In this document: piece by piece, positions 20,731-21,070 of the stretch
Position numbering within the stretch: position 1 is the stretch's first letter
Layout: every line of letters starts with the position of its first letter
NCBI RefSeq assembly: GCF_009914755.1
Contig: NC_060931.1
Reading direction: 5' to 3' (one strand)
Origin: the human T2T-CHM13v2.0 reference genome, Homo sapiens
DNA: 64,000 bases
Notes under the pieces: model-generated
The model's input: only the letters and a program-made list of their open reading frames with translations
Told to the model about the DNA's origin: nothing
Databases searched by the model: none
Program-made: the position numbers and the translations under genes

Positions 20731-21070
20731 GGCGGGGCGCAGTGACTCACACCTGTAATCCCAGCACTTTGGGAGGCCAAGGTGGATGGATCACGGGGTC
20801 AGGAGATAGAGACCATCCTGGCCAACATGGTGAAACCCTTCTTTACTAAAAATACAAAAATTAACCGGGTGTTGTGGCGCGCGCCTATAGTCCCAGCTAC
20901 TCGGGAGGCTGAGGCAGGAGAATCCCTTGAACACTGGAGGCAGAGCTTGCAGTGAGCCAAGATCCAGCCACTGCACTTCAGCCTGGCGACTATAAAAGAC
21001 CTTCAAAAGACCCTATCTTTGTACATTAGAGGACTATTCTCTTTTCTAATAAAAGTATAAAATAAGTAAA
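20731..21070 (+). mobile_element. AluSc-like element with disrupted 3' end
   Basis: Sc-type GCCTGGCGAC; terminal AGAGCGAGACTCCGTCTC replaced by foreign sequence; TSD AAA(T/A)TTGTATTAAA. Confidence 0.93.
20998..21056 (+). repeat. Dispersed 58-59-bp repeat, copy C, at the Alu 3' end
   Basis: 52/59 ungapped identity to 29893-29951. Confidence 0.92.

What the first reader, a model, noticed from the sequence alone, without database searches (positions are those of the whole stretch)
20989..21062. Alu 3' end replaced by a 58-bp copy of unique sequence lying 8.9 kb downstream
After GCCTGGCGAC the Alu terminus is missing. In its place is GACCTTCAAAAGACCCTATCTTTGTACATTAGAGGACTATTCTCTTTTCTAATAAAAG, 52/59 identical and ungapped to 29893-29951 in direct orientation. 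It is flanked by TATAAAA on both sides (20991-20997, 21056-21062), and ACTATAA lies just upstream of both copies. The Alu's own TSD is intact, so the change is internal to the Alu. It resembles a templated insertion or template switch.
Basis: seen in the sequence. Interest (0 to 1): 0.72.

Follow-up and report, generated by a model that had tools for sequence, protein, structure and literature searches.

The report
Alu end patched with nearby DNA
An old human Alu repeat has lost its last 18 bases and carries in their place about 66 bases matching DNA 8.9 kb away, likely a harmless scar left when a DNA break was patched by copying a neighbouring stretch.

Summary
Window 20998-21056 matches 29893-29951 at 52/59 bases, and no third copy was found in CHM13. 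It sits where the last 18 nt of an AluS-type element should be, inside an 18-bp TSD (16/18 identical).

New detail: the left junction is a mosaic of three overlapping donor tracts, so all of 20989-21056 is donor-like and the left TATAAAA needs no TSD reading. Divergence fits an event about as old as the Alu (age ratio 1.3, CI 0.4-3.7). A second ~57-bp, kb-range, same-strand copy lies about 660 bp upstream inside another repeat, with no Alu end involved, so such patches also arise without an Alu insertion.

Best reading (0.45): later break repair by microhomology-guided template switching. Main rival (0.28, plus 0.10 for a later nested L1 hit): L1 reverse transcriptase jumped templates. The right junction reads like an L1 3' tip (post hoc p 0.004-0.024). 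No primate orthologs were reachable, so timing and polarity are inferred. No function is evident; this is a new example of a known class.

The parts
20713..20730 (+). left target-site duplication of the Alu (18 bp)
   Evidence: 16/18 identical to 21066-21083
20731..20990 (+). AluS-type body, consensus positions 1-264 of 282; last 18 nt absent. Subfamily AluSc is a recalled label; no repeat library was available
   Evidence: 10/215 non-CpG and 15/43 CpG differences from a data-built consensus
20989..20995 (+). junction tract 1 = donor 29880-29886; its first two bases (AC) are shared with the Alu end (2-nt microhomology)
   Evidence: a shared 7-mer within 20 nt occurs at 407 of 63,902 window positions (0.6%)
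20994..21003 (+). junction tract 2 = donor 29900-29909 (10 bp exact); overlaps tract 1 by AA and tract 3 by GACCTT, which is repeated in the donor at 29893 and 29904
20998..21056 (+). main copied tract, 59 bp, 52/59 identical to the donor
21057..21065 (+). 9-nt A-rich remnant: a decayed A-tail, or the 3' tip of an L1 RNA
21066..21083 (+). right target-site duplication
29880..29951 (+). inferred donor, in sequence with no other genome match except an unrelated 45-base hit about 420 bp away; no Rfam match; no abutting direct repeats

Best explanation
The last 18 bases of this Alu are missing and about 66 bases matching DNA 8.9 kb downstream stand in their place, most likely because a germline DNA break near the Alu's A-tail was patched, probably early in the Alu's history, by a polymerase that switched onto the nearby DNA. 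Inferred steps: the left broken end primed on the donor through a 2-nt match (AC). It copied 5 nt, slipped forward through AA to the second GACCTT, slipped back 11 nt to the first GACCTT, copied 53 more nt, and rejoined the stump of the A-tail. This is microhomology-guided template switching of the FoSTeS/MMBIR or synthesis-dependent end-joining type. The product is likely a neutral scar. Shown: the two-copy match, the missing Alu end, the TSD and the three-tract mosaic. Inferred: direction of copying, timing, the enzyme, and neutrality.
For: Every base of 20989-21056 is covered by donor tracts (apart from the 7 substitutions), linked by 2- and 6-nt overlaps. Loss of the Alu end plus a templated insert inside an unchanged TSD is a deletion-with-insertion junction. 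A second same-strand short copy with a kb-range partner (20267-20326 vs about 14760-14814; 46/54 identical; 2 matches genome-wide) interrupts a multi-copy repeat. In 4 of the 8 relatives listed with both halves the window has exactly 57 extra bases; the others give 62-96. So this kind of patch forms here without an Alu end. The slips cluster at the left end, where top-strand synthesis would start (the low initial processivity of MMBIR is recalled). Priming microhomologies of 2-3 bp are typical of templated insertions (PMC11541566, passages).
Against: The divergence (7/59) is what an event as old as the Alu predicts (5.5 expected, p=0.62); the likelihood ratio is about 2-3 for same age over a uniformly later time. 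The right junction has at most 1 nt of microhomology under this model but 7 nt under the L1-tip model. Pol theta templates are mostly under 10 bp and within 20 bp of the break, so classical TMEJ does not fit 66 nt from 8.9 kb. The right-hand TATAAAA remains a roughly 2% coincidence (1 of 54 tails; 20 of 1,039 windows).
Confidence: 0.45

Rival explanations
1. Co-insertion. During target-primed reverse transcription L1 ORF2p first copied an A-tail (possibly an L1 RNA 3' tip), jumped onto a local template 8.9 kb away (nascent RNA or exposed DNA), copied about 66 nt with slips, then jumped into the Alu RNA at the 2-nt AC match and finished it. One TSD encloses everything.
For: Same-age divergence. 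The donor's last 7 nt plus the next 4 nt of the copy equal the 3' tip of L1 ends read from held DNA. An empirical null of 40,000 random donor ends joined to real Alu tails gives p=0.004 with the donor's letters and p=0.024 with the copy's letters. Precedents: 452 TSD-bounded Alu/L1 chimeras (PMC13174262); a local pre-mRNA co-inserted with a somatic L1 (PMC10191854); 22 templated insertions in a set of about 3,600 somatic solo L1s (bioRxiv 2024.08.27.596794); 3'-truncated U5 in L1 chimeras and triple chimeras (PMC4476161).
Against: It needs two template jumps plus two slips. The L1-tip match was found post hoc, is 9-11 nt long in AT-rich sequence, and the 11-mer has about 39,600 matches genome-wide against 33,000 for its reversed control. 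Known Alu/L1 chimeras mostly have full-length Alus. Reported templates at L1 insertions typically lie within 15 bp. No annotated + strand transcript covers the donor (hub annotation).
Confidence: 0.28
2. A later, abortive L1 insertion into the existing Alu's tail. ORF2p nicked the A-rich tail, copied the L1 tip, switched to the donor through the 7-nt match, and resolved at AC in the old Alu, deleting its end.
For: The same L1-tip junction, with only one jump between unrelated templates before resolution. A second insertion inside the 3' end of a first is the standard alternative for tripartite structures (PMC4476161).
Against: No second TSD. It needs a target-site deletion and a switch within about 16 nt of the start. 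The tip evidence is weak and post hoc.
Confidence: 0.1
3. The Alu was already 3'-truncated and ended in TATAAAA plus tail. A 58-bp templated piece was inserted later with a 7-bp duplication of TATAAAA, using ACTATAA and AAAA as split microhomology.
For: It explains both TATAAAA copies and the ACTATAA match without coincidence.
Against: It needs a prior rare truncation: 4 ends cut at this base and followed by A7 vs 18,808 intact. The junction 19-mer is unique in the genome. The left TATAAAA is already explained by donor tracts.
Confidence: 0.08
4. Reverse polarity: the 29.9-kb segment is the copy and the Alu tail held foreign sequence from a lost source.
For: No outgroup was tested.
Against: The 21-kb copy lies inside a TSD, so it is no older than the Alu. 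Its junction is a rearranged mosaic of the 29.9-kb site, which holds 13 more upstream bases in simple order. There are no abutting direct repeats at 29.9 kb and no third copy.
Confidence: 0.04
5. Chance match, a common repeat, or an assembly artefact.
For: The genome search skips very common words; reads were not seen.
Against: E 6e-16; 2 matches by an exact-pattern scan with 3 mismatches and 0 in the control; 12% divergence between copies.
Confidence: 0.02

Closest known systems
Templated insertions at deletion junctions (FoSTeS/MMBIR; Pol theta TMEJ). PMC11541566 passages, PMC6258378 passages, PMC4937565 passages
   Same: Deletion plus an insert copied from the neighbourhood, 2-nt priming microhomology, multi-template junction.
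   Different: TMEJ templates are mostly <10 bp and within 20 bp of the break; here about 66 nt from 8.9 kb. Kb-range templates at germline deletions are recalled from Abyzov et al. 2015, which was not held (nothing read).
Class 2 templated sequence insertion polymorphisms (TSIPs), Onozawa and Aplan, PMC5110952 (abstract and first quarter of the text)
   Same: A short unique-sequence patch at a break, with microhomology and no TSD of its own; experimental inserts were 73-414 bp.
   Different: Their donors are distant, usually on other chromosomes, and the events are polymorphic. This donor is local and the event is old.
Templated insertions accompanying L1 retrotransposition (bioRxiv 2024.08.27.596794, passages and end of section 4; PMC11702581, passages and supplement Fig. 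S10 legend; PMC10191854, passages)
   Same: Local genomic or pre-mRNA sequence enclosed in one TSD with a retroelement; slippage between near-tandem copies is described in Fig. S10B.
   Different: Those are somatic or engineered L1 events with templates mostly within 15 bp to about 1 kb. Here the piece lies between a truncated Alu body and the tail.
Alu/LINE-1 and snRNA/LINE-1 chimeras (PMC13174262, PMC4476161; passages)
   Same: 5' Alu, 3' second template and A-rich end within one TSD; AluJ/AluS era.
   Different: Alus there are mostly full-length and the 3' part is a recognisable L1. Here any L1 part would be at most about 16 nt, with a local bridge.
Internally primed and non-classical (endonuclease-independent) Alu insertions (PMC5402677, passages)
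   Same: [quoted passage not shown]
   Different: Non-classical insertions lack TSDs and internally primed ones lack extra sequence. This one has both a TSD and a traceable local insert.

Membership tests
Templated insertion at a deletion junction (replicative / synthesis-dependent end joining) | insert matches an identifiable template elsewhere | tested here: met
   52/59, two copies only
Templated insertion at a deletion junction (replicative / synthesis-dependent end joining) | loss of sequence at the acceptor | tested here: met
   18 nt of Alu consensus missing
Templated insertion at a deletion junction (replicative / synthesis-dependent end joining) | microhomology at the switches | tested here: inconclusive
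   2 nt (left), 2 and 6 nt (internal), 0-1 nt at the right junction
Templated insertion at a deletion junction (replicative / synthesis-dependent end joining) | an ancestral allele with the intact Alu end exists | not testable with these tools
   no primate genomes besides the window's own (no relatives)
Classical Pol theta TMEJ insertion | template short (<10 bp typical) and within about 20 bp of the break | tested here: not met
   about 66 nt, 8.9 kb away
Chimeric retrotranscript (Alu/L1 type) | one TSD around all parts, parts in sense orientation | tested here: met
Chimeric retrotranscript (Alu/L1 type) | 3' part is a recognisable L1 or polyadenylated RNA with an A-tail | tested here: inconclusive
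   9-11-nt match to L1 tips, p 0.004-0.024 post hoc; the donor's ATTAAA lies only 2 nt from the junction, not 10-30 nt
Chimeric retrotranscript (Alu/L1 type) | all parts arrive together in the phylogeny | not testable with these tools
   needs a multi-species alignment; divergence is compatible, ratio 1.3 (0.4-3.7)
Chimeric retrotranscript (Alu/L1 type) | L1 endonuclease site at the TSD start | tested here: inconclusive
   the TSD begins GT then A6 on the right copy; this differs from TT/AAAA and the two copies disagree
Non-classical (endonuclease-independent) Alu insertion | no TSD | tested here: not met
   18-bp TSD present
Alu 3' transduction | a source Alu directly upstream of the donor segment | tested here: not met
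   no Alu match in 29500-30300; no other copy of the junction
Class 1 TSIP / orphan retrocopy | own TSD, poly(A) 10-30 nt after a signal | tested here: not met
   no poly(A) at that spacing; the 7-bp repeat is explained by donor tracts

The most novel reading that the evidence does not exclude
A germline fossil of one L1 reverse-transcriptase run across three templates: L1 RNA 3' tip, then a local chromosomal or nascent sequence 9 kb away (entered through a 7-nt match), then the inside of an Alu RNA, all within one TSD. It would mark a class of Alu/local-DNA/L1-tip chimeras that catalogues anchored on annotated L1s would miss, and would record which sequences were physically near a TPRT site in an ancient primate germline.
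Probability: 0.17. Interest if true: 0.55.

Novelty: new member of a known kind. Interest (0 to 1): 0.28.

Why it matters
As a single locus it matters little. It lies in an intron of a predicted lncRNA on the opposite strand (hub annotation), has produced no detectable further copies and shows no sign of function. Its value is as a clean, datable example: the TSD, the known Alu end and a unique donor allow the junction to be parsed base by base, and primate alignments can settle repair versus co-insertion directly. If co-insertion through an L1 tip were shown and proved recurrent, it would extend known ORF2p template jumping to kb-range local templates at the 3' side of Alu insertions.

Tried and rejected
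Common repeat: rejected.

Structured RNA at the donor: 0 Rfam matches at E<=1 in 29400-30400.

Alu 3' transduction, or a source element with offspring: no Alu at the donor; the junction is unique.

Subfamily-specific dating failed: only 2 other Alus of 211 shared both diagnostic deletions, so that sub-consensus and its 18/220 figure were discarded. The general consensus was used with 2 shared columns skipped.

Empty-site proxy: the repeat left of the Alu ends at 20644 and does not span the insertion site.

Tandem duplication of the insert's last 11 nt (8/11 match): noted, not distinguishable from chance in A-rich sequence.

Base-rate survey: 200 Alus in 264 kb were examined and 87 got a TSD call (113 did not). 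None of the 86 others had a unique donor for its tail; the one extra flagged row was an adjacent Alu start. The survey is small, and mostly from one Alu-dense chr1 block.

Papers not held: Srikanta 2009, Abyzov 2015, Gilbert 2005.

Full report
Observation. 20998-21056 and 29893-29951 are 52/59 identical without gaps, on the same strand, E 6e-16, with background identity on both flanks (also family D18). Three DNA searches of the whole CHM13 assembly and a 30-base pattern scan with up to 3 mismatches find the 59-mer only at these two places. A random partner would lie within 8.9 kb with a chance of about 6e-6 (hand arithmetic), so the mechanism acted in cis. Rfam has no match at the donor.

The Alu. 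I built a 282-nt consensus from 206 Alus in the window and a 200-kb chr1 block. The element at 20731-20990 covers positions 1-264 and stops 18 nt short. It carries a 2-bp and a 1-bp deletion that I recall as AluSc diagnostics; no repeat library was available to confirm the name. An 18-bp TSD (20713-20730, 21066-21083; 16/18) encloses the Alu, the insert and a 9-nt A-rich remnant. The junction 19-mer is unique genome-wide, against 18,808 intact ends of this type and 4 ends cut at the same base and followed by seven A.

Junction anatomy. Exact-match parsing shows three overlapping donor tracts on the left: 20989-95 = 29880-86, 20994-21003 = 29900-09 and 20998-21012 = 29893-907. They overlap by AA and by GACCTT, which the donor repeats 11 nt apart, and the first tract shares AC with the Alu end. 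A shared 7-mer like tract 1 occurs at 0.6% of window positions (407 of 63,902). So the insert is about 66 nt and donor-like throughout, and the left TATAAAA does not need to be a duplicated target. The right TATAAAA is then a coincidence of about 2% (1 of 54 Alu tails), a re-copy, or part of an L1 tip. Some of the seven differences could date from the copying itself, since two changed tracts match other parts of the donor; that would make the event look older than it is.

Age. The Alu differs from the consensus at 10 of 215 non-CpG sites. An event of the same age predicts 5.5 differences between copy and donor and 7 are seen (p=0.62); the age ratio is 1.3 (95% CI 0.4-3.7). The likelihood ratio for same age over a uniformly later time is only 2-3. 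With AluS activity at 35-60 Mya (PMC5402677, passages), the event is likely older than about 14 My (inference).

How common. Of 200 Alus examined, 87 got a TSD call; none of the 86 others had a tail with a unique donor (upper bound about 3.4% by hand; 113 had no TSD call). But the window holds a second short two-copy match, 20267-20326 against about 14760-14814, 46/54 identical, same strand, 5.5 kb apart, with 2 pattern matches genome-wide. It interrupts a multi-copy repeat: 4 of the 8 relatives listed with both halves are exactly 57 bases shorter there, and the others 62-96. The pairwise alignments to two relatives were gappy across this stretch and did not fix its ends. This is a polarised insert of similar size and divergence with no Alu end, so kb-range patches arise here on their own. 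Its closeness (about 660 bp) to the Alu insert is unexplained.

A lead for the rival. L1 3' ends read from held DNA (identified as L1 by recall) end in a tip whose letters equal the donor's last 7 nt followed by the next 4 nt of the copy's tail. In 40,000 random donor-end/Alu-tail pairs such a junction-spanning match arises with p=0.004 (donor letters) or 0.024 (copy letters). It was found post hoc, the motif is short, and the genome-wide count of the 11-mer (39,592) is not far above its reversed control (33,005). It raises but does not establish an ORF2p route.

Mechanism. I commit to later break repair with microhomology-guided template switching (0.45). The grounds are deletion plus insert, slips clustered where top-strand synthesis would begin, and an Alu-independent twin nearby. 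It is not classical TMEJ, whose templates are mostly under 10 bp and within 20 bp (PMC11541566, passages). Co-insertion by ORF2p gets 0.28 and a nested abortive L1 hit 0.10. Precedents are 22 templated insertions among about 3,600 somatic solo L1s, mostly within 15 bp, three engineered cases, one co-inserted local pre-mRNA, 452 Alu/L1 chimeras and triple chimeras. Among 226 de novo Alus, 8 were atypical, and the passages I saw describe none of this kind (PMC3415434). The TATAAAA-TSD reading gets 0.08, reverse polarity 0.04 and artefact 0.02. These weights combine rough priors of my own with the ratios above.

Literature limits. Ten full-text searches listed no paper on this locus (0 hits for LOC105375196) and no listing that named an Alu with a kb-range local template between body and tail. 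I read passages only, plus the first quarter of PMC5110952 and one supplement part of PMC11702581; PMC4666360 and PMC2912911 were also seen as passages. Srikanta 2009, Abyzov 2015 and Gilbert 2005 were not held. Supplement tables I did not open (PMC13174262, PMC2912911) and closed bioRxiv supplements could list this or similar loci.

Verdict. The feature is real and well defined, most likely a neutral, ancient templated patch: a new member of a known kind, interest 0.28. A primate alignment would decide between repair and co-insertion.

Noticed in passing
window 20267-20326 and about 14760-14814: Second short same-strand two-copy match (46/54), 5.5 kb apart, with 2 pattern matches genome-wide. 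The 20.3-kb copy is a ~57-bp insert in a multi-copy LTR-like repeat (about 20145-20644; family MER21-like by recall only). It lies about 660 bp from the Alu insert.
   Followed up: partly
window 13457-13488 (minus) next to about 13490-13700 (plus): An L1-like 3' UTR piece lacks its terminal tip on the plus strand, while such a tip with a TAA-rich tail sits inverted just upstream of it; this looks like a small inversion or twin-priming product.
   Followed up: no
window 58836-58908 and 59017-59089: GC-rich 73-nt direct repeat, 86% identical, 181 bp apart, right after an Alu fragment.
   Followed up: no
window 45656-45817: Inverted repeat with 71-nt arms, 82% complementary, 20-nt spacer; MITE-like shape.
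   Followed up: no
window 49087-49420: Alu with an altered last 8 nt and a long tail of AAGC/AAAC/AACC units inside a 16-bp TSD.
   Followed up: no
L017 (G000:C1, block positions 86055-86238 and 87091-87274 from 27,000,001): 184-bp perfect direct duplicate 1,036 bp apart in Alu-masked sequence.
   Followed up: no
L010 (G000:C1, block positions 13190-13463): Alu lacking its last 9 nt with only a 5-A tail inside a perfect 14-bp TSD.
   Followed up: no
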